The notes: generated from the sequence alone by a model not told the origin. 64,000 nucleotides of DNA from the human T2T-CHM13v2.0 reference genome, Homo sapiens (GCF_009914755.1 NC_060929.1); one strand, 5' to 3'; positions 20,761 through 50,290 are shown, numbered from the stretch's first letter. Program-made: numbers and translations.

Positions 20761-20800
20761 TGCAGTAACTTCTTAGGACTCTGAGCGCCGCTGTTCACCT
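20761..20800 (+). promoter_or_regulatory. PCDHGA10 promoter CSE (CTCF site)
   Basis: TGCAGTAACTTCTTAGGACTCTGAGCGCCGCTGTTCACCT; CGCT 20789-20792. Confidence 0.9.
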
Positions 20801-21017
20801 ACTAGGAGAGAAAACGCAGCCAGAGCTCAATCCGGATTCTCAGGGCTTCAACTACACAAGCCCCACAAACCGGCTGCTGGGCTGCAGGGAAGCTCACTCC
20901 AGAATTTAAAGTGCCCAGGCTACAGAGACACCCTGAAGCCACAGAAAGACAAAGGAACCGGTTGAAACACACAACGTGTCCAGTGAGGACTTTGCAGAAT
21001 TCTGTAACCAGACTACA

Positions 21018-23453
21018 ATGGCCGCTCAAAGGAATCGCTCAAAGGAATCAAAGGATTGCAGCGGGCTGGTCCTGCTCTGCCTTTTCTTCGGGATTCCATG
21101 GGAGGCTGGAGCCCGGCAGATCTCCTACTCAATTCCTGAGGAATTAGAGAAAGGCTCTTTCGTGGGCAACATCTCCAAGGACTTGGGTCTGGCGCCCCGG
21201 GAGCTGGCGGAGCGCGGAGTCCGCATAGTCTCCAGAGGTAGGACGCAGCTTTTCTCTCTGAACCCGCGCAGCGGCAGCTTGGTCACCGCGGGCAGGATAG
21301 ACCGGGAGGAGCTCTGCGCTCAGAGCGCGCGGTGCGTGGTGAGTTTTAATATCCTTGTGGAAGACAGGGTGAAACTTTTTGGGATAGAAATAGAAGTAAC
21401 TGATATCAATGACAATGCTCCAAAATTCCAAGCAGAAAATCTAGACGTAAAAATTAATGAAAATGTCGCTGCGGGAATGCGTTTTCCTCTCCCGGAAGCT
21501 ATTGATCCGGATGTGGGCGTGAACTCCCTGCAGAGCTATCAGCTCAGCCCCAATAAGCACTTCTCCCTAAGAGTTCAGAGCCGTGCCAATGGCGTCAAGT
21601 ACCCGGAGCTGGTACTGGAGCACTCCCTAGATCGCGAGGAAGAGGCCATTCACCACCTGGTCCTCACCGCCTCCGACGGGGGTGACCCTCTCCGATCTGG
21701 CACTGTCCTTGTCAGTGTGACTGTCTTCGATGCAAATGACAACGCGCCGGTCTTCACCTTGCCAGAATACCGAGTGAGTGTTCCTGAGAATTTGCCTGTG
21801 GGCACTCAGCTGCTGACAGTCACAGCCACCGACAGGGACGAAGGTGCCAATGGAGAAGTGACATATTCATTCCGAAAATTACCTGACACGCAATTGTTGA
21901 AGTTCCAACTAAACAAATATACTGGAGAAATAAAAATATCAGAAAATCTAGATTATGAAGAAACCGGTTTCTATGAAATAGAAATACAAGCAGAAGATGG
22001 AGGAGCATATCTTGCAACTGCAAAAGTGTTGATTACAGTAGAAGATGTAAATGACAACAGTCCAGAGCTGACCATCACGTCTCTATTTAGTCCAGTGACT
22101 GAAGATTCACCTCTGGGAACAGTCGTAGCCCTTTTAAATGTGCATGATTTAGACTCTGAGCAGAATGGACAGGTAACCTGTTCCATTTTGGCGTATCTAC
22201 CATTTAAATTAGAAAAGTCCATTGACAGTTATTACAGATTGGTGATACACAGAGCCCTTGACAGGGAACAGGTATCCTCTTACAATATCACAGTGACAGC
22301 CACAGATGGGGGAAGTCCTCCTCTATCAACGGAAGCTCACTTTATGCTACAAGTGGCAGATATCAATGACAACCCACCTACCTTCTCTCAAGTCTCCTAC
22401 TTTACCTATATCCCAGAGAACAACGCCAGGGGTGCCTCCATCTTCTCAGTGACAGCGCTGGACCCGGACAGCAAAGAGAATGCCCAGATTATTTACTCCC
22501 TGGCTGAAGACACCATCCAGGGGGTACCTCTGTCCTCATACATATCCATCAACTCAGACACTGGCGTCCTGTATGCACTCAGATCCTTCGACTATGAGCA
22601 GTTTCATGAGCTACAGATGCAGGTGACAGCCAGCGACAGCGGGGATCCTCCACTCAGCAGCAACGTGTCGTTGAGCCTGTTTGTGCTGGACCAGAACGAC
22701 AATGCGCCCGAGATCCTGTACCCCGCCCTCCCCACAGACGGTTCCACAGGCGTGGAGCTGGCGCCCCGCTCCGCAGAGCCCGGCTACCTGGTGACCAAGG
22801 TGGTGGCGGTGGACAGAGACTCCGGCCAGAACGCCTGGCTGTCCTACCGTCTGCTCAAGGCCAGCGAGCCGGGACTCTTCGCGGTGGGGGAGCACACGGG
22901 CGAGGTGCGCACGGCGCGAGCCCTGCTGGACAGAGACGCGCTCAAGCAAAGCCTCGTAGTGGCCGTCCAGGACCACGGCCAGCCCCCTCTCTCCGCCACT
23001 GTCACGCTCACCGTGGCCGTGGCCGACAGCATCCCCCAAGTCCTGGCGGACCTCGGCAGCTTCGAGTCTCCAGCTAACTCTGAAACCTCAGACCTCACTC
23101 TGTACCTGGTGGTAGCGGTGGCCGCGGTCTCCTGCGTCTTCCTGGCCTTCGTCATCGTGCTGCTGGCGCACAGGCTGCGGCGCTGGCACAAGTCACGCCT
23201 GCTGTAGGCTTCAGGAGGCGGCTTGACAGGTGTGTCCGGCTCGCACTTTGTGGGCGTGGACGGGGTTCGGGCTTTCCTGCAGACCTATTCCCACGAGGTC
23301 TCTCTCACCGCGGACTCGCGAAAGAGTCACCTGATCTTCCCCCAGCCCAATTATGCGGACACGCTCATCAGCCAGGAGAGCTGTGAGAAAAACGATCCTT
23401 TGTCTTTGTTAGATGATTCGAAGTTTCCTATAGAGGATACCCCATTGGTTCCA
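21018..23453 (+). CDS. PCDHGA10: Protocadherin gamma A10 variable exon, carrying a premature TAG at 23205-23207 (codon 730)
   Basis: [20 protein letters not shown] start; ORF stops at ...HKSRLL-TAG but the same frame continues (ASGGGLTG...DTPLVP) to CCA|GTGAGT donor; 812 codons in total. Confidence 0.92.
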
Positions 23454-25404
23454 GTGAGTTTTATTTTCATTTTTACTTTTGTTAAAAAAAAAAAGATTGG
23501 TTTTTACTTTGAAGTTTGCGGCATGATGGTGGAAAGTGTAAATGCTAAAACACTGATGAGTAGAATTTGATGTTTATTAAGGTTTTTTTTTTTTTTTTTT
23601 TTTTTTTACTTTCTGGTAAAATTCACCTAGTCTCAATCAAGGCCTATATATCATAAGGCTTTGTTATGATTAGCTTTGCAGAACCTTGTAGTTTATAGTG
23701 TTGTTGAGTACAATATTGACAATTCCTAAGACAGACTTCCATACAGAAGTGCCTGTCAATTTATATTTCCTCCTGGGTGGTCACATATTGAAACTCCAGC
23801 CCCTTAAGCAACCCTCTTGTTCTGAAGGCAGGTCTGGTAAGAATAGGTAAGTATCAGAAAGAAATCACCTCTGGAAACACAACCCAAATCCAAGAATACT
23901 CAATGCAGTTCTTCCCAAGGAGAAGGGCAATAGGCCTTTTTCAAACTACATTTTATATATTTTTCAATCTATACTTTGTGGTGATAGTTGCAGTTGAATA
24001 TACTAAGTTTTTCATTAATATTGAATTAACAATTTATTTATAACAATGTATGCTTAGATTTTTCCAGCCCTATTTATAACTGATAACACTGCAGTATCCT
24101 TTTTGCATACAATTCTCTAATTTCACACTGCTATGTGGAAGATATAGCATTTTAATTTAACTTTCATTGCTCAATAGGGATCCTGAGGAGGCTATAGAGG
24201 GTGAAATTAAGAATATTTGGGATTCTGCTTTTGTCTTTTTTGTTAAATTTTCTAGTGACTAAGGCTGAAAGTAAATATGGGTTGGGAAGACAGATAAATT
24301 TGTACATGTTCCCGAGAACAGGAGCAAGAGATATATGACAAAGCTATTTCAGTGGCTCTTTAATGTATAAGGAGGCAAACACCTGAAACTCTGAAAACTC
24401 TGAAATTGAGAGGCAAAATAAACTTAGAGTCAAGAAAGAAATGCCATTTCTGCAGATCAGAATATAAACACCAACCACAGCTGTAAAAAAGAAAAGAATA
24501 TATGCAACGAAGGGAAATTATATAAACAAAGGATCATTGGAGGTACTGATGAGTTCATTTAGTTCAATGAAAATAGTGACGTATTAGGTAGATCTCTTAA
24601 TTTTATTACTAGTATTCTACTAAATGTGGTAGTATAAAGTCAAAAAGCATTCCGAAGTTTCTCAAGACCCTTATAATTCCATGATTTTTTTCAGGTCAGT
24701 CAACATTTGTTGAATGATAGGTCTGTGGAAGGAAAGCACACTCTTTAGGGTCATAGTTATTAACTATTAAACCATTGAAACTATTATTTTATATTTGTGT
24801 TAATGAGAGTCAAAATTATTGTGCATTCATCTCAAATAATTCTATTATTTTGAAAAATACAGGTTTTTTTTTTAAAAAAACTGCTCTTGACATTGTAGCT
24901 ATTGTGAGAAAATATTTTGATTATAATTATTTAAAAGCAATACAGGACACCCTGGATGATGGTAATGACTAGGGCAATGGTTGCATTCCAGTACTTAAGT
25001 ATGAAATAAGGAATTATTACTTTCTGGGTGAATATAGGCTAGAATTGAAGACAAAAAAATTTGTTGCTTATCTTCAGTACTTCCAGCTTCATAGATAATT
25101 ACTCTTAAAAGGAACAAGAATGACTGCCTCTGGATGGAGGAATTGGATAGCAATGGGCCGTGGGATAGGAGACCTATAAACCTTCATGCTATATTATTTT
25201 GTGCCTTTTTAAATTTTGAAGAAAAAATATTCATTTATTCAAGATATATGTAAATTCAGTAAATAAAAAGATATGATAGTTATGACCAAGTGGAAATATA
25301 TTTCCTGATGTAAAAGGAATCACTGAGGAAAAAGATTAAAATATTTTGGCTGTCAACTCGTAGTTTAAAAAAAATTCCTTGAAAGAGGTAGAGAAAAGTC
25401 AAGT

Positions 25405-25445
25405 TGCAGTCCCACACAGAGCCTCTGGGCGCCGCCGTCGGCCAG
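25405..25445 (+). promoter_or_regulatory. PCDHGB7 promoter CSE (variant CGCC box)
   Basis: TGCAGTCCC...GCCTCTGGGCGCCGCCGTCGGCCA; near-copy of B6 element with T>C in the box. Confidence 0.85.
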
Positions 25446-25693
25446 TGCAGAGCAAGCGCTGACGCCGGGGATCCCTCAGCCTCTAGCCTGGGATTCCCTG
25501 CGCAGCCAACAACAGAAAAGAAAACCAGCTCCCACACAGAGGCTCCCGGCTGCGCAGACCTTGCCCAGCACACCAGATTGCCAGCTCCGAGACCCGGGAC
25601 TCCTCATGTCCTGGGCCGAATGCTCTTTTAGCGCGGTAGAGTGCACTTTCTCCAACTGGAAAAGCGGGGACCCAGCGAGAACCCGAGCGAACG

Positions 25694-34112: not shown

Positions 34113-36482
34113 ATGGGAAGGATGGGAAACAGGGTGAAGCAGAGAAGCAGGACCCGGCAGTGGCAAGCACTCTTCCCTTTCCTGCTGCCTTTGTTCTGCG
34201 GGGCACCCTCGGAGCAGATCCGCTACTCTATTCCAGAAGAAACGGTCCAGGGCTCCGTGGTGGGGAACCTTGCGGAGGACATGCGGCTGCATGTTCAGGA
34301 TTTATTGACCTGAAACCTTAGAGTTAGTGCAGAGAAACAATACTTTACCGTGAACACGGAGAATGGGAACATACTTGTGAGTGACAGAATAGATCGAGAG
34401 TCACTGTCTTCAAAATCCTCTGTGTCATACCCTTAGAGATTGTAGCAGAGAATCCTCTAAATGTTTTTCACATAAATGTGATGATAGAAGATATAAATGA
34501 TAACCCACCTCATTTTCCCCAAAATAGCCTTGTTTTACAAATCAATGAACTAGCAATTCCAGGCATTCAGTTTGGCCTGGAATCTGCTATAGATGCAGAT
34601 GTAGGGCCTCACTCTCTCCAGAGTTACCAGCTCAGTTCTAATGAACATTTCTCTCTGATGATGGACAAGACTAAAGGCAAGAACGCTCCAGAATTAGTGC
34701 TGGAGAAGCCCCTGGGCCAGGAGCAACAGAGCTCTCATCTCCTGGTCCTGGAAGCAATGGACATGGGTGACCCAGTCCCAACTGGCACTGCTGCAATTCA
34801 AATTGAGGTCACTGATGCCAACGATAATGCCCCAGTTTTTAGCCAGGATGTATACAAAGTCAGCCTTAGAGAGAATGTGCCCCCAGGCACCTCTGTACTA
34901 AAGGTGACAGCCACTGACCAGGATGAGGGTGTCAATGCGGAGATCACCTACTCTTTCAAATCCCTACGAGATGATATTGGAAATATGTTTGTGCTAGACC
35001 ATCAAAATGGGGAAATTAAATCCAAAGACTTAATAGACTTCGAATTTCGTAGCAGTTATACCATGAGAGTAGAAGCTAAGGATGGTGGAGGCATGACCAG
35101 CGAATGTAAAATTATACTAGAAATCCTAGATGAGAATGACAATGCCCCAGACGTGGTTTTTACTTCAGTGTCCAGTTCTGTAACTGAGGACGCAGAACCC
35201 TGGACGGTGATCACTCTGTTCAAAACACATGATAAAGATTCGAGAGAAAATGGGGAGGTTACATGCCTCATAAACGAAAGAGTTCCTTTCAGAATCGAAT
35301 CTTCCGCCAATAATGACTATAAGCTTGTAACAGATGGGACCCTGGATTGGGAGCGGATCCCGGAGTACAACGTCACCATCACTGCCACTGACAAGGGCAA
35401 GCCTCCGCTCTCATCCAGCACAAGCCTCACCCTACGCATTGGTGAAGTCAACGACAATGCTCCGGTTTTCCACCAAGTCTCCTACGTGGTCCACGTGGCC
35501 GAAAACAACCTTCCCGGAGCCTCCATCCCACAAGTCAGCGCCTCTGACCTGGACCTAGGGCTGAATGGCCAAGTCTCCTACTCCATCGTTACCACTGACT
35601 TGGAGCTGCGGGCACTGTCGTCCTACGTGTCCGTGAGCGCACAGAGCGGGGTGGTGGTCGCGCAGCGTGCCTTCGACCACGAGCAGCTGTGCGCCTTCGA
35701 GCTCACGATGCAGGCCCACGACCAGGGCTCGCCCGCGCTCAGCGCCAACATGAGCCGGCGCATGTTGGTGGGCGACCTCAATGACAATGTGCCGCGGGTG
35801 CTGTACCCCGCGCTGGGGCCCGATGGCTCCGCACTCTTCGATATAGTGCCACGCGCCGCAGAGTCCGGCTACCTGGTGACCAAGGTGGTGGCGGTGGACG
35901 CAGATTCGGGACACAACGCTTGGCTGTCCTACCACGTGCTGCAGGCCATCGAGCCCGGGCTTTTCAGCCTGGGGCTGCACACGGGAACCTGCTGGTTGCT
36001 GTGCGTGACGGAGGACAGCCGCCGCTCTCTGCGCCGCTACGCTTCACCTAGTCTTCGCAGACAGCCTGCAGGAGGCACTGCCAGACTTCAGTGACAGTCC
36101 TGTGCCCTCTGATTCCCAAGCAAAGCTGCAGATTTACCTGGTCGTGGCCTTGGCCTTGATTTCTATGCTCTTCTTCCTCGCAGTGATTTTGGCGGTCGCC
36201 TTGCACCTGCGATGCTCTTCCAGCCCCTCTGCCTGGGGTTGCTTTCACCCTGGTCTCTGTTCTAAGACTAGACCAGGGGTTTTTCCCAACTACAATGAGG
36301 GAACTTTGCTTTATTCCTGCAATCTGTATGTTCCCTCGGATTCTAGAAAAAGAAGATTTAATTTTCTCACCATGACACCAGAAACAGTCCCCCCACAAGA
36401 TCTTTCTAATGAAGTTTCTCTGGTAGCAAGCTTCACTGAAGAGAATAACAAGATAAGCTCTAACTCTGTTGCTCCTACTCAC
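34113..36482 (+). pseudogene. PCDHGB8P: Protocadherin gamma B8 pseudogene
   Basis: B-type homology; TGA at 34311; frameshift ~34405-34425; net 49-bp deletion at ~35987 versus B5; further 1-bp deletion ~36033; retains CAC|GTGAGT donor. Confidence 0.9.
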
Positions 36483-37345: not shown

Positions 37346-38346
37346 AGAGAAAAAAGCTTAAAAAAATAAGAACATGGTAATGATTTGATAATATTCAGTT
37401 ACATTTACTTTTGATTCTTGTAATTCAAGTAAACTCAATTTTATGTCTGATATTTTCTCACAGCTACCTATATATTTCTTCCGAATTTAAAATATATTAT
37501 TTTATTTTATGCCTAGCAAATATCTTTACAGTATAAATATTTACGCTCATGAAAGTACGTAGCCAGTTATTTCTTAGGGAGAATTTTTTCCCTATATTTT
37601 GATGGGCTTCCAAAAGTATTACCAGTAATTCTCAGTAATTACAATTAGGTCAGTTACCCAGGAAAAGGTAAGTCTGTAACATTCTTTGGACTACCAATTT
37701 TCTTTTACTAAGTTTCCTGAACAATAAATATTTTTGAAATATAATGTATTAATAGAATTCTGGAGTACTTCCATTATTTCCAGTCAATGCAAGTTGGAAT
37801 GCTTCTACTTTATGCTAAAAATATTAATGTTTCTTTTTCACTTGGGTTCTTGTTAAGTGTGATTCTGATAATGTATACAATCACATATCATTTTTAGGTT
37901 TCCATAATATCATGAAAATTTGATTTTTAAGCGTTACATGTCAACAACCTGGTAAAGTAATCCTTCCATTCAGGATCATTCAAGGAATCTATTTAAAAAT
38001 ATTTTCCCCAAATTATAGCTGAATCAGAAAGTTTAAATTATTATATTATATGATTTGTCAAAAAGAGAAACTCCTAGGGAGACATCTCCCATAATAGGTG
38101 TGTTGGGGGAACAGTAATCTCAAAGCAGATGCACTAACATTATAAGATTAAAATCATTGTTTATAGAAACTTCCAATTCATTTAAAAGCTCATTGGGGAA
38201 AAAAAAGCTCATTGGGAAAAAAAAAAAAAGCTCACTAAAGTTTCTATTAAAGCGAATACGGTAGATTTCCATCCCCTTTTGAAGAACAGTAGGTGGAGCT
38301 ATTTAAGATATAAAAACGAAATATCCTTTCTGGGAGTTCAAGATTG

Positions 38347-38388
38347 TGCAGTAATTGGTTAGGACTCTGAGCGCCGCTGTTCACCAAT
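38347..38388 (+). promoter_or_regulatory. PCDHGA12 promoter CSE (CTCF site)
   Basis: TGCAGTAATT...GGACTCTGAGCGCCGCTGTTCACCAAT; CGCT 38375-38378. Confidence 0.9.
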
Positions 38389-47650: not shown

Positions 47651-50290
47651 GTGGGGAATGGTGCTGGACTGACAGTCTGGGTAGAACCAAGGCGACTACT
47701 GCCTCCTTTCCTGCTATTTCTATCCTGCTGGGCATTCTCTATGATGCAGATCCGTTATTCAGTCCTAGAGGAGCTGGCCAAGAGTTTGGTGGTGGGAAAC
47801 CTTGCCAAGGATCTGGGACTCAGTGTCGAGGACATGCCCACTTGAAAGCTTCGGGTTAATGCTGAGGAATAATACTTCATTCTAAGTGGGGAAAGTGGAG
47901 ACTTACTTGTGAATGACTGAATGGATCAGGAGCAGATACGCCCCCCAATTATAGCTTGGGCCATAACGCTTTGAAATAGTTGAAGGCCAGGCATGGTGGC
48001 TCACACCTGTAATCCCAGCACTTTGGGAGGCCGAGGCGAGCAGATTACGAGGTCAGGAGTTCGAGACCAGCCTGACCAACATAGTGAAACCCTGTCTCTA
48101 CTAAAAATACAAAAATTACTGGGCATGGTGGTGCAGGCCTATAATCCTAGCTACTCGGGGGGCCGAGGCAGGAGAATCGCTTGAACCCGAGAGGCAATCG
48201 CACCACTGCACTCCAGCCTGGGTGACAGAGCAAGGCGCCATCTCAAAAAAAATGAACAAACGGTAGTTGAAAATTCTTTAAATGTTTTTCACATTAATAT
48301 GGAGATTCAGGATATGAAGAATCATGCACCACGGTTCAGCAGGAATGTTATTAAGTTACGTATCTCTGAGTTTACCCAGCTGGAACAAGATTTGCAACAG
48401 AACCTGCAGAAGATCCTGATGTTGAGAGAAATTCCTTACAAAATTATCACCTTAGCAGCAACTCTATATTTCTCTTTGAAGTAAAAGTGACCAACAGTGG
48501 AAAGACATATGTTGATCCTGTGTTAGAGAAGCTGCTTGACTAGGAAAAGCAGAGCTCCCATCCCTTAGTGCTAGCAGCCTTAGACGGCCCCCCAACAAAG
48601 CAGCATCACTCAACTCCTGATCCTATTGGTTGAAGCCAATGACAACCCTGTGTTCATCTAGGATGTGTACAGCGTCGGCCTTCAGGAAGATGTGCATCCG
48701 GGCACTCCTGTGCTGAGAGTGAGGGCCACCAACCAGGACTAGAGTGTCAAGGCAGAGATCACATATGGCTTCACAACCCAGAGTACCCATATCTAGTTTG
48801 GCCTTGATCAAATAGTGGAGAAATGAAAACTTTAAGTACATTGGACTTTTAAAGATTTTTAATTTCCATGGTTTTGGTAGCAAGTGACAGAGAGGGACTC
48901 ATTGTCCAGTGTACAGTTGAGACCGAATTTCTAGAAGATAATGACAATATCCTAGAGGCGATTTTTACTTCTAATTCCACAATGATTCCCAAAGATTCTG
49001 CACCTTGGACAGTAATCACTGTCCAGGATTTAAATCACAAGATCTTTAAATCACAAGATCTGGATTCGGGAGAAAACGAGGTCACATGTCTGATATAAGA
49101 AAATGCACCTTGAGAAAAATCTTCCTCCAATAATTAACTACATGCTTGTAACAAATGGGGCCGTGGACCAGGAACAGACCCAAGGTATAACATCAGCATC
49201 ACTGCCACTGACAGAGGCAAACCAACCCTCTCGTCCAGCCCAAGCATCACCCTACTCATTGGCGATGCCAACGACAATGCTCTGGTTTTCTACCAGGCCT
49301 CCTACGTCGTCCACGTGGCCAAGAACAATCTTCCCAAAGCCTCCATAGTGTGCAAGTAGACACCTCCAACCTAGACTTGGGACCCAACAGCCAAGTTCCC
49401 TATTCCATCGTGGCCAGTGACCTGGAGCCACAGGCGCTGTGATTCTAGGTGTCCTTGAGCGCACAGTGCGCCTTCGACCAAGAGCAGCCGCGAGCCTTCA
49501 AGCTCACGCTGCAGGCCCGCGACCAGGACTAGCTCGCGCTCGGCGTCAACGTGAGCCTGCGCGTGTTGGTGGACGACCTGAATGACAACGCACCGCGGGT
49601 GCTGTACCCCAGCTCTGGAGCGCAATGGCTTCGCGCTCTTGGATATGGTGCTGCACGCCGCGGAGCCTGGCTACCTGGTCACCAAGGTGGTGGCTGTAGA
49701 CGCAGATGTGAGACACAATGCGTGGCTGTCCTACCACGTGCTGCAGGCCAGCAAGCCCAGGCTCTTCAGCCTGGAATGCGCACCGACGAGGTGCTGACAG
49801 CTCGCACGATGGGCCACAGGAAAGCGACTCGCCAGCGCCTACTGGTCGCGGTGCACTGCGGTGGACAGCCGCTCCTCTCGCTACCGCCACGTCACCACCA
49901 CTACCGCCCCTCGTCGCCGACAGCCTGCAGGAGACTCTGCCAGACCTCAGCGATCACTCTGCAAAGCTACAGCCTGAATCCAAAATTAATTTATATCTGG
50001 TGATTGCCTTAGCTTTAATTTCCTTTTTATTCTTCCTGATTGCATTGTTTGTGCTGGTTTTAAAGTGCCGAAGACCCCAAAATGATCCTGTCTGAGTCTT
50101 TCCCACGGATGTCTATCCCGCGCTAAGCCCCAGGTTTCTGGGTAACTGTAGCTCTATGATGCCATATTCCTACCAGGTGTGTGCTTCTCCTACGAATCCA
50201 GGGCTGAGTGAACTTCTTTTTTGAATCCCTACCCCTCAGGACTCAATAGCAGTTTCACTGCAGAAAGCCCCTTGGGGAAGGGGATGATTG
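47651..50290 (+). pseudogene. PCDHGB9P: Protocadherin gamma B9 pseudogene (3' end approximate)
   Basis: VGNGAG (GTG) aligns with B5 MGSGAG; [27 protein letters not shown] and TM remnants; many stops/frameshifts; Alu insertion in EC1. Confidence 0.88.
47985..48252 (+). mobile_element. AluS element inserted in PCDHGB9P EC1
   Basis: Alu dimer with ~20-bp right-arm deletion; tagttgaa repeated at 47977 and 48264. Confidence 0.9.

What the first reader, a model, noticed from the sequence alone, without database searches (positions are those of the whole stretch)
23205..23207. Nonsense allele of PCDHGA10 (CAG>TAG, Gln730Ter) just after the transmembrane helix
Seen: A10 reads CGC CTG CTG TAG GCT TCA GGA GGC, whereas A12 has CGC CTG CTG CAG GCT TCA GGA GGC and A8/A11 also have CAG. 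The other 811 codons, the CSE and the donor are intact, so this is one recent lesion, not an old pseudogene. Established: PCDHGA10 is normally a full-length ~936-aa protein (812 + 124 constant residues). Inference: the stop is 246 nt upstream of the exon junction, so spliced mRNA should undergo NMD. Any escaping or unspliced transcript would give a membrane-anchored ectodomain with a ~10-aa tail and no variable/constant cytoplasmic domain. With stochastic promoter choice, neurons picking this allele would lose or mis-signal one identity isoform. A sequencing/assembly error or an artificial edit cannot be excluded.
Basis: partly seen in the sequence, partly recalled or inferred. Interest (0 to 1): 0.82.

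Follow-up and report, generated by a model that had tools for sequence, protein, structure and literature searches.

The report
Stop-codon allele of PCDHGA10 in CHM13
The T2T-CHM13 reference genome carries a single, evolutionarily recent stop codon in one of the 22 gamma-protocadherin variable exons (PCDHGA10), most likely an ordinary tolerated loss-of-function variant that matters mainly to people who use this assembly as a reference.

Summary
Window 23205-23207 reads TAG at codon 730 of the PCDHGA10 variable exon, and it is the only stop in 812 codons. The held T2T-CHM13 assembly is identical there, so this is not an edit of the window.

The ancestral state is a sense codon:
- 9 of the other 11 gamma-A paralogs in this genome have CAG, one has CGG and one CAC.
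- Of 19 mammalian gamma-A10 orthologs, 16 have Q, 2 K and 1 R; none has a stop.

The lesion is young. The promoter CSE, splice donor and remaining frame are intact. Downstream of the stop only 1 of 82 residues differs from chimpanzee.

Best reading: an inherited C>T (c.2188C>T, p.Gln730Ter) stop-gain on the CHM13 haplotype. CHM13 is reported to carry 210 putative loss-of-function differences from GRCh38 (preprint passages). I could not read that list, and I could not obtain the allele frequency.

The 50-nt rule is met, but the exon is 2625 nt, so the "long exon" exception applies. Frameshifts in mouse Pcdhg variable exons did not lower transcript levels. A 729-aa tailless protein is therefore plausible. 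Low interest.

The parts
20776..20793 (+). Conserved promoter element (CSE-type motif GGACTCTGAGCGCCGCTG) 36 nt upstream of the annotated PCDHGA10 transcription start at 20829. It is intact.
   Evidence: 7 matches in the window, against 0 in 100 shuffles. Six of the 7 lie upstream of an annotated variable-exon start; the A12 match lies 22 nt inside its annotated transcript. The A10 copy is identical to those of A9 and A12; the core GCGCCGCTG is invariant in 5 of 5 gamma-A upstream regions aligned. The name 'CSE' comes from PMC6957209 (passage) and from recall.
20829..23453 (+). PCDHGA10 variable exon (exon 1 of 4 of NM_018913.3 in the hub's gene table), 2625 nt.
   Evidence: Hub annotation; length computed. 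Pfam hits: Cadherin_2 at 34-116, Cadherin (5 stretches), Cadherin_C_2 at 692-776.
21018..23204 (+). The open reading frame that remains: 729 codons covering the signal region, six cadherin repeats, the transmembrane segment and a 12-residue tail.
23094..23168 (+). Coding sequence of the transmembrane segment, residues 693-717 ([25 protein letters not shown]).
   Evidence: the only uncharged run of 18 or more residues found, and the Kyte-Doolittle maximum at windows starting 697-698.
23205..23207 (+). TAG, codon 730 (c.2188C>T, p.Gln730Ter). This is T2T-CHM13v2.0 chr5:141941205-141941207.
   Evidence: Identical in the held assembly. No other gamma-A paralog in this genome has T at this base.
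23208..23453 (+). 82 codons of the variable cytoplasmic domain now downstream of the stop. They are still open in frame and conserved.
   Evidence: no further stop; only one difference from the chimpanzee cluster representative in this stretch (N792 versus K); the Cadherin_C_2 match spans 692-776 and is cut by the stop.
23454..23459 (+). 5' splice donor GTGAGT, joining the variable exon to the constant exons, which lie outside the window.
   Evidence: hub annotation for the exon end.
23454..23570 (+). Read-through extension of the unspliced short isoform: 38 codons plus a stop, giving 850 aa without the TAG. That transcript (20829-25285 in the hub table) is a single exon and carries the same TAG.
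   Evidence: translation past the exon end. The hub table lists 'exons of other transcripts 20829-25285'.

Best explanation
This is a genuine germline single-base substitution, C>T at a non-CpG site (CAG to TAG, c.2188C>T, p.Gln730Ter), carried by the haplotype that became the essentially homozygous CHM13 genome. It truncates protocadherin gamma-A10 twelve residues after its transmembrane segment. It removes 83 residues encoded by the variable exon and the whole shared constant domain. Inferred consequences are as follows. Spliced transcripts are only partly removed by nonsense-mediated decay, because the stop lies in a very long exon. The single-exon short transcript is not a target of junction-dependent decay at all. 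Cells that choose this promoter would therefore make less gamma-A10 message and a 729-aa tailless protein. By analogy with engineered cytoplasmic deletions of gamma-A3, that protein should reach the cell surface and junctions more readily than full-length protein. It cannot, however, be routed to endosomes or signal through its variable and constant cytoplasmic domains. Because gamma-A and gamma-B isoforms are collectively dispensable for survival in mice, the allele is most likely tolerated. Shown here: the stop itself, its ancestral state, its recency, and the intactness of the rest of the gene. Inferred: germline origin, partial NMD, the behaviour of the truncated protein, and tolerance.
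For: The TAG is present and is the only stop in 812 codons. The window is 100% identical to the held assembly over 461 nt around the site.

The ancestral codon is a sense codon. Of the other 11 gamma-A paralogs in this genome, 9 have CAG, 1 CGG and 1 CAC, and none has T at the first base. Neither gene conversion nor paralog mis-assembly can therefore supply the T. Of 19 mammalian orthologs, 16 have Q, 2 K, 1 R and 0 a stop.

The lesion is recent. The protein is 99% identical to the chimpanzee cluster representative, with 7 substitutions plus the stop, and only 1 of these lies in the 82 residues after the stop. The splice donor and promoter motif are intact. By contrast, the annotated pseudogenes in the same window show frame changes and several stops: PCDHGB8P has 2 stops and pieces in two frames, and PCDHGB9P has many stops spread over all three frames.

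Assembly quality: the consensus accuracy of T2T-CHM13 is stated as about 1 error per 10 Mbp, with near-uniform homozygosity (PMC9186530 passages). Such variants are expected: 210 putative loss-of-function differences from GRCh38 in 189 genes, of which 158 were seen in 1KGP with median allele frequency 0.47 (preprint 10.1101/2021.07.12.452063 passages).

Function: cytoplasmic deletion of gamma-A3 reduces late-endosome colocalisation and enhances junction accumulation (PMC10544333 passages). Mice lacking all functional gamma-A and gamma-B isoforms survive without excess apoptosis, and small frameshifts in V exons did not reduce transcript levels (PMC6957209 passages). Stops in exons over 400 nt show weak NMD (PMC12776119 passages), and this exon is 2625 nt.
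Against: I saw no reads, no GRCh38 sequence and no population data. Germline origin, homozygosity at this site and allele frequency are therefore unverified. The held assembly is the source of the window, so one search excludes an edit of the window but is not independent confirmation of the base.

No paper in the searchable library links PCDHGA10 with Q730, Gln730, 2188C or hg19 position 140794930, or with CHM13. I could not read the list that should contain it, Table S5.1 of the preprint, because its supplements are closed. The published version was not held.

The human reference protein itself was not returned as a separate record; the 90% cluster is represented by chimpanzee.

For the functional part, the mouse frameshifts were elsewhere in the exons and the deletion constructs were gamma-A3, not A10. 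At 246 nt from the junction the stop may still trigger substantial NMD.
Confidence: 0.85

Rival explanations
1. The T arose somatically in the hydatidiform mole or during culture and immortalisation of the CHM13hTERT line. It became clonal and was taken into the consensus, so no person carries this allele.
For: CHM13 is a cell line, and a few thousand heterozygous variants are reported in it (PMC9186530 passage). The variant is absent from all searchable main texts. A gene specialised for neurons would be under no selection in such cells (inference).
Against: By my estimate from general knowledge, not from a call, inherited differences from any other human haplotype are far more numerous per base than clonal culture mutations. 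One search reports that 158 of 210 CHM13 loss-of-function differences are seen in 1KGP.
Confidence: 0.06
2. The T is a consensus, polishing or paralog mis-placement error in the assembly, and the real CHM13 base is C.
For: The gamma-A variable exons are 79-94% identical over the 100 nt around the site, so the locus is paralog-rich.
Against: The stated accuracy is about 1 error per 10 Mbp, so roughly 0.006 errors are expected in a 64-kb window. None of the other 11 gamma-A paralogs has T at this base, so misplaced paralogous reads could not create it. The flanks are unique at 100% identity to only one place in the genome.
Confidence: 0.02
3. PCDHGA10 is an old or fixed pseudogene in humans, and TAG is the normal state.
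For: Two pseudogenised variable exons, PCDHGB8P and PCDHGB9P, exist in the same window (hub table).
Against: There is only one disabling lesion in 812 codons, and only 1 difference from chimpanzee in the 82 residues after the stop. RefSeq places a protein-coding NM_ transcript with its coding part running through the site (hub table), which requires an open frame in the transcript record. The real pseudogenes show frame changes and multiple stops.
Confidence: 0.02
4. The window was edited artificially (a planted change) and the assembly has C.
For: I found no positive evidence for it.
Against: The held assembly matches the window at 100% over 23000-23460, and locus L001 taken from it reads TAG.
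Confidence: 0.01

Closest known systems
Putative loss-of-function differences between T2T-CHM13 and GRCh38 (Aganezov et al., preprint 10.1101/2021.07.12.452063; passages seen)
   Same: A protein-truncating difference in the CHM13 assembly within a protein-coding gene. [quoted passage not shown]
   Different: I could not confirm that this site is on their list (Table S5.1 is closed), nor whether it falls among the 158 seen in 1KGP or the 52 not seen.
rs113784532, the PCDHGA10 short-isoform frameshift proposed for familial positional vertigo (PMC8101739; passages seen)
   Same: A truncating variant of the same gene that affects the cytoplasmic end. The authors discuss NMD escape and a mis-handled truncated protein.
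   Different: It is a different site and mechanism: an extra A in the 11-A run just after the exon. That run is 23484-23494 here and has the 11-A control length. The frameshift affects only the unspliced short isoform and removes 24 residues. The TAG at codon 730 hits both isoforms and removes the whole cytoplasmic part.
Engineered cytoplasmic-deletion gamma-protocadherins, e.g. gamma-A3 delta-190 (PMC10544333 passages; PMC3216661 abstract in the listing)
   Same: Ectodomain plus transmembrane segment with almost no tail. The natural allele would delete 207 of 936 residues, close to the delta-190 construct. These constructs show less endosomal routing and more surface and junction accumulation.
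   Different: Those are over-expressed mouse gamma-A3 constructs in HEK cells. Here it would be an endogenous human A10 allele whose message may be partly degraded. Nothing was measured.
Mouse Pcdhg reduced-diversity alleles (Garrett et al. 2019, PMC6957209; passages seen)
   Same: Premature stops inside single variable exons. One line (13R1) also lost A10. Transcript levels were unchanged by small indels. [quoted passage not shown]
   Different: They are mouse alleles with multiple exons hit at once, carrying frameshifts rather than a single nonsense codon near the exon end. Subtle wiring or behavioural effects of losing one isoform were not the question there.
PCDHGB8P / PCDHGB9P, pseudogenised variable exons in the same cluster
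   Same: Variable exons of the same cluster that can no longer encode a full protein.
   Different: They carry several stops and frame changes and have diverged strongly: 57-60% (B8P) and 29-75% (B9P) identity to B7 per piece. A10 has one lesion and is 99% identical to chimpanzee A10.

Membership tests
Clustered protocadherin gamma-A variable exon (PCDHGA10 ortholog) | Ectodomain of cadherin repeats followed by a transmembrane segment and the protocadherin cytoplasmic (Cadherin_C_2) region, all in one exon | tested here: met
   Cadherin_2 at 34-116 (E 1.7e-37), Cadherin with 5 stretches (E 1.6e-85), Cadherin_C_2 at 692-776 (E 4.6e-31); hydrophobic segment at 693-717.
Clustered protocadherin gamma-A variable exon (PCDHGA10 ortholog) | Best matches are proteins named gamma-A10 in other mammals, and these are closer than other paralogs | tested here: met
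   99% identity to the chimpanzee gamma-A10 cluster, 96-98% to other apes and monkeys, 85-86% to mouse. Gamma-A9-named proteins are at 75-78%, and the window's own A8, A9, A11 and A12 are at 71-76%.
Clustered protocadherin gamma-A variable exon (PCDHGA10 ortholog) | Own promoter with the conserved sequence element, and a 5' splice donor at the exon end | tested here: met
   motif at 20776-20793; GTGAGT at 23454-23459.
Old (decayed) pseudogene | Several independent disabling lesions and relaxed conservation after the first lesion | tested here: not met
   One stop in 812 codons. Only 1 of 82 residues downstream differs from chimpanzee. PCDHGB8P and PCDHGB9P in the same window show the expected decay.
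Transcript predicted to undergo nonsense-mediated decay | [quoted passage not shown] | tested here: met
   246 nt to the first of three downstream junctions for the spliced 4-exon transcript (hub table). This is not met for the single-exon short transcript 20829-25285, which has no downstream junction.
Transcript predicted to undergo nonsense-mediated decay | Stop not in a long exon (over 400 nt) and not within about 200 nt of the start codon | tested here: not met
   The exon is 2625 nt, so the long-exon exception applies as described in PMC12776119. The start-proximal exception does not apply, since the stop is 2188 nt from the ATG.
Transcript predicted to undergo nonsense-mediated decay | Measured loss of the stop-bearing allele in RNA | not testable with these tools
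   No expression data were available. The mouse analogy argues for weak decay.
Catalogued human variant (CHM13-versus-GRCh38 loss-of-function list; population databases) | Listed with an identifier and an allele frequency | not testable with these tools
   Preprint supplements are closed, and the published paper is not held. There were no hits in the one supplement file held for PMC9186530 or for PMC10172123. No main-text hits.

The most novel reading that the evidence does not exclude
Because NMD appears weak on Pcdhg variable exons, this allele may not be a simple null. It could be a natural human 'tailless' gamma-A10: a protein that reaches the surface efficiently and still pairs in cis and trans with other protocadherins, but cannot be routed to endosomes or signal. 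It would then act as a dominant decoy in every neuron that chooses the A10 promoter. Carriers would be a natural experiment on what the gamma-protocadherin cytoplasmic domains do in the human brain. CHM13 shows that the allele can be present on all copies of a genome.
Probability: 0.12. Interest if true: 0.4.

Novelty: already known. Interest (0 to 1): 0.14.

Why it matters
The main importance is practical. T2T-CHM13 is increasingly used as a reference, and at this site the reference itself carries a broken PCDHGA10.
- Gene models projected from RefSeq run straight through a stop.
- Ab initio or protein-based annotation of this assembly will truncate or flag the gene.
- Variant callers will report ordinary people as carrying a 'stop-lost' change.
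- Clinical pipelines could miss, or misread, truncating variants here.

Biologically it is one more example of a single clustered-protocadherin isoform being dispensable. This fits the mouse data that only gamma-C4 is essential. If the truncated protein is made, carriers could teach something about the cytoplasmic domains, but nothing here shows that it is.

Tried and rejected
Gene conversion from a paralog: rejected. None of the other 11 gamma-A copies in this genome has T at that base.

Old pseudogene: rejected.

Planted edit: rejected as far as the held assembly shows.

Literature search for the variant. PCDHGA10 + 'stop' returned 30 papers, 25 listed. PCDHGA10 + 'nonsense' returned 19 papers, 16 listed. 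I opened 7 of these: PMC8101739, PMC10259412, PMC6173941, PMC12192397, PMC11361568, PMC8798411 and PMC10352493. None mentions codon 730. They report other variants (rs113784532, p.Tyr331Ter, p.I89V), gene lists, or a splicing 'fusion'. The other listed papers were not opened.

A combined search for PCDHGA10 with Q730, Gln730, 2188C or 140794930 found 6 papers, none of which holds PCDHGA10. PCDHGA10 + CHM13 found 0 papers under both matching modes. One search, a broad loss-of-function search, was badly framed and returned nothing with PCDHGA10.

Supplements. The one file held for PMC9186530 and the one held for PMC10172123 have no PCDHGA10. The preprint's Table S5.1 is closed. The published Science paper and the Lindeboom 2016 NMD paper were not held under the ids I tried from memory. 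The 'long exon' rule is therefore cited second-hand from PMC12776119.

Earlier findings of this scan were not open to the session.

I did not run structure prediction, fold search or complex prediction, because no claim here depends on them.

Full report
**What is in the sequence**

Window 23196-23219 reads CGCCTGCTGTAGGCTTCAGGAGGC, with TAG at 23205-23207. Translating the annotated coding part of the PCDHGA10 variable exon (21018-23453) gives 812 positions with a single stop, at position 730. Its first base is c.2188 counted from the ATG.

The stop follows the only long uncharged segment of the protein, residues 693-717, by twelve residues ([12 protein letters not shown]). It cuts the Pfam Cadherin_C_2 match, which spans 692-776. 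The last base of the stop is 246 nt from the exon end, and the intron begins with GTGAGT. The tail is 12 residues rather than about 10.

**Is it an artefact of the window?**

The window's own assembly is held as G000. The stretch 23000-23460 matches G000:C5:141941000-141941460 at 100%, and the next best place in the genome (A12) matches at 92%. Locus L001, cut from the assembly, reads TAG. The window was therefore not edited relative to the assembly. This is not independent confirmation of the base, because the window comes from that assembly. The site is T2T-CHM13v2.0 chr5:141941205-141941207.

**Ancestral state**

All twelve gamma-A variable exons of this genome were compared at the codon. 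A10 has TAG. Nine have CAG: A8, A11 and A12 in the window, plus L003, L004, L006, L007, L008 and L010. A9 has CGG and L009 has CAC. No paralog offers a T at the first base, so neither gene conversion nor misplaced paralogous reads can explain it.

A protein search returned gamma-A10 orthologs from many mammals. Of the 19 I aligned, 16 have Q at this column, 2 have K, 1 has R and none has a stop. The change is thus CAG to TAG, a C-to-T transition in the context GCA, which is not a CpG.

**Age of the lesion**

The translated exon differs from the chimpanzee cluster representative at 7 residues plus the stop (99% identity). Only one of those differences, N792 versus K, lies in the 82 residues downstream of the stop.

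The promoter motif GGACTCTGAGCGCCGCTG at 20776-20793 is identical to those of A9 and A12. It is one of 7 such matches in the window. Six lie upstream of an annotated variable-exon start, and the A12 match lies 22 nt inside its annotated transcript. There were 0 matches in 100 shuffles.

For contrast, a tblastn of the B7 protein against the two annotated pseudogenes shows real decay. PCDHGB8P shows two stops and pieces in two reading frames. PCDHGB9P shows many stops across pieces in all three frames. The A10 exon aligns in one frame without a stop up to residue 717 of B7.

**What it most likely is**

According to passages of Nurk et al. (PMC9186530), CHM13 is almost uniformly homozygous. Its assembly has about one consensus error per 10 Mbp, and it shows no apparent excess of loss-of-function variants.

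Passages of the Aganezov et al. preprint (10.1101/2021.07.12.452063) report 210 putative loss-of-function differences from GRCh38 in 189 genes. Of these, 158 were seen in at least one 1KGP individual with a median allele frequency of 0.47. [quoted passage not shown] The full list is in their Table S5.1.

A stop-gain in PCDHGA10 fits this class. By their method it should be on that list, but I could not read the list: preprint supplements are closed and the published paper is not held.

I therefore put about 0.85 on an inherited stop-gain allele. I put about 0.06 on a mutation acquired in the mole or in culture, about 0.02 on assembly error, about 0.02 on TAG being the normal human state, and about 0.01 on an edit. 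The split between inherited and culture-acquired rests on my general estimate of their relative numbers per base, not on a call.

**Population frequency and prior description**

I could not determine either. No paper in the searchable library holds PCDHGA10 together with Q730, Gln730, 2188C or hg19 position 140794930. None holds it together with CHM13 under either matching mode.

I opened seven of the papers that hold PCDHGA10 with 'stop' or 'nonsense'. They report other things:
- an extra A in the poly-A run after the exon (rs113784532, PMC8101739);
- p.Tyr331Ter (PMC6173941);
- p.I89V (PMC11361568);
- gene lists, or a cluster 'fusion' that is really splicing.

The single supplement files held for PMC9186530 and PMC10172123 do not contain the gene name. 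Supplements of other papers, and databases such as gnomAD, may well hold the variant.

**How it would work**

The hub table gives two transcript types. One is a spliced form: exon 20829-23453 joined to three constant exons outside the window. The other is an unspliced single-exon form, 20829-25285. Without the stop, the unspliced form reads 38 codons into the intron, giving 850 aa.

Both contain the TAG. Translation would stop after 729 residues. That leaves the whole ectodomain and membrane anchor, but loses 83 variable-exon residues and, in the spliced form, the constant domain. The constant domain is 124 residues by the 936-aa length of primate orthologs; I did not read those exons.

However, passages of PMC12776119 describe a recognised exception, attributed to Lindeboom et al. 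2016. Stops in exons longer than 400 nt show weaker decay, probably because decay falls off with distance from the downstream junction. This exon is 2625 nt.

More directly, Garrett et al. (PMC6957209) report that small frameshifting indels in mouse Pcdhg variable exons A1, B1, A5, A7, B7 and C4 did not significantly reduce transcript levels. The single-exon form has no downstream junction at all. I therefore expect partial, not complete, loss of message, and some truncated protein. This is inference: at 246 nt from the junction, decay could still be considerable.

For the protein, the nearest experimental analogue is the cytoplasmic deletion of mouse gamma-A3 (delta-190). Passages of PMC10544333 state that the deletion reduces colocalisation with late endosomes and enhances accumulation at cell junctions. 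They add that earlier aggregation studies used cytoplasmic deletions because these promote surface localisation. The abstract of PMC3216661, seen only in the listing, says the variable cytoplasmic domain controls trafficking and is conserved in the gamma-A subfamily.

A Q730X protein would thus be an adhesion-competent, signalling-dead gamma-A10.

**Likely consequence**

In mice, a line lacking every functional gamma-A and gamma-B isoform (3R1) survives without excess neuronal death. Gamma-C4 is the only isoform required for viability (PMC6957209 passages). Losing one gamma-A isoform is thus expected to be tolerated. Subtle effects on self/non-self discrimination in neurons that choose A10 are possible but untested.

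**Verdict**

It is an ordinary kind of thing, a tolerated truncating allele in a reference genome, in a published assembly whose loss-of-function differences have been catalogued. Its practical relevance is that the T2T-CHM13 reference carries a broken PCDHGA10, which affects annotation and variant interpretation at this gene. Interest 0.14.

Noticed in passing
window 23169-23171 (codon 718 of PCDHGA10, CAC): The first residue after the transmembrane segment is His in this genome. It is Leu in 19 of 19 aligned mammalian gamma-A10 orthologs and in the window's A8, A9, A11 and A12. I could not tell whether this is a human-fixed change or a second variant on the same haplotype as the stop 36 nt downstream.
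   Followed up: partly
window 23484-23494: This run of 11 A sits 31 nt after the exon end. It is the site of rs113784532, where a 12th A frameshifts the short isoform and was proposed as a cause of familial positional vertigo (PMC8101739 passages). CHM13 has the 11-A control length.
   Followed up: yes
window 25400-25520 (upstream of PCDHGB7) and 38362-38379 (PCDHGA12): The promoter motif search with at most 1 mismatch found 7 sites but none before PCDHGB7, whose annotated start is 25511. The A12 copy lies 22 nt inside the annotated A12 transcript, which starts at 38340. This probably reflects a more diverged B7 motif and an alternative A12 start.
   Followed up: no
window 34122-36455 (PCDHGB8P) and 47750-50074 (PCDHGB9P): Similarity of B8P to the B7 protein continues to about 36455, some 360 nt beyond the annotated end of PCDHGB8P (36094), in a different frame. 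B9P similarity begins about 170 nt before its annotated start at 47921.
   Followed up: no
PCDHGA10 residues 136, 321, 427, 443, 490, 792 (window 21018-23453): There are six further amino-acid differences from the chimpanzee cluster representative: K/T, I/V, T/R, M/T, Q/R and N/K. Which of these are human-fixed and which are CHM13 variants is unknown. The glioma paper's p.I89V site reads I89 here.
   Followed up: no
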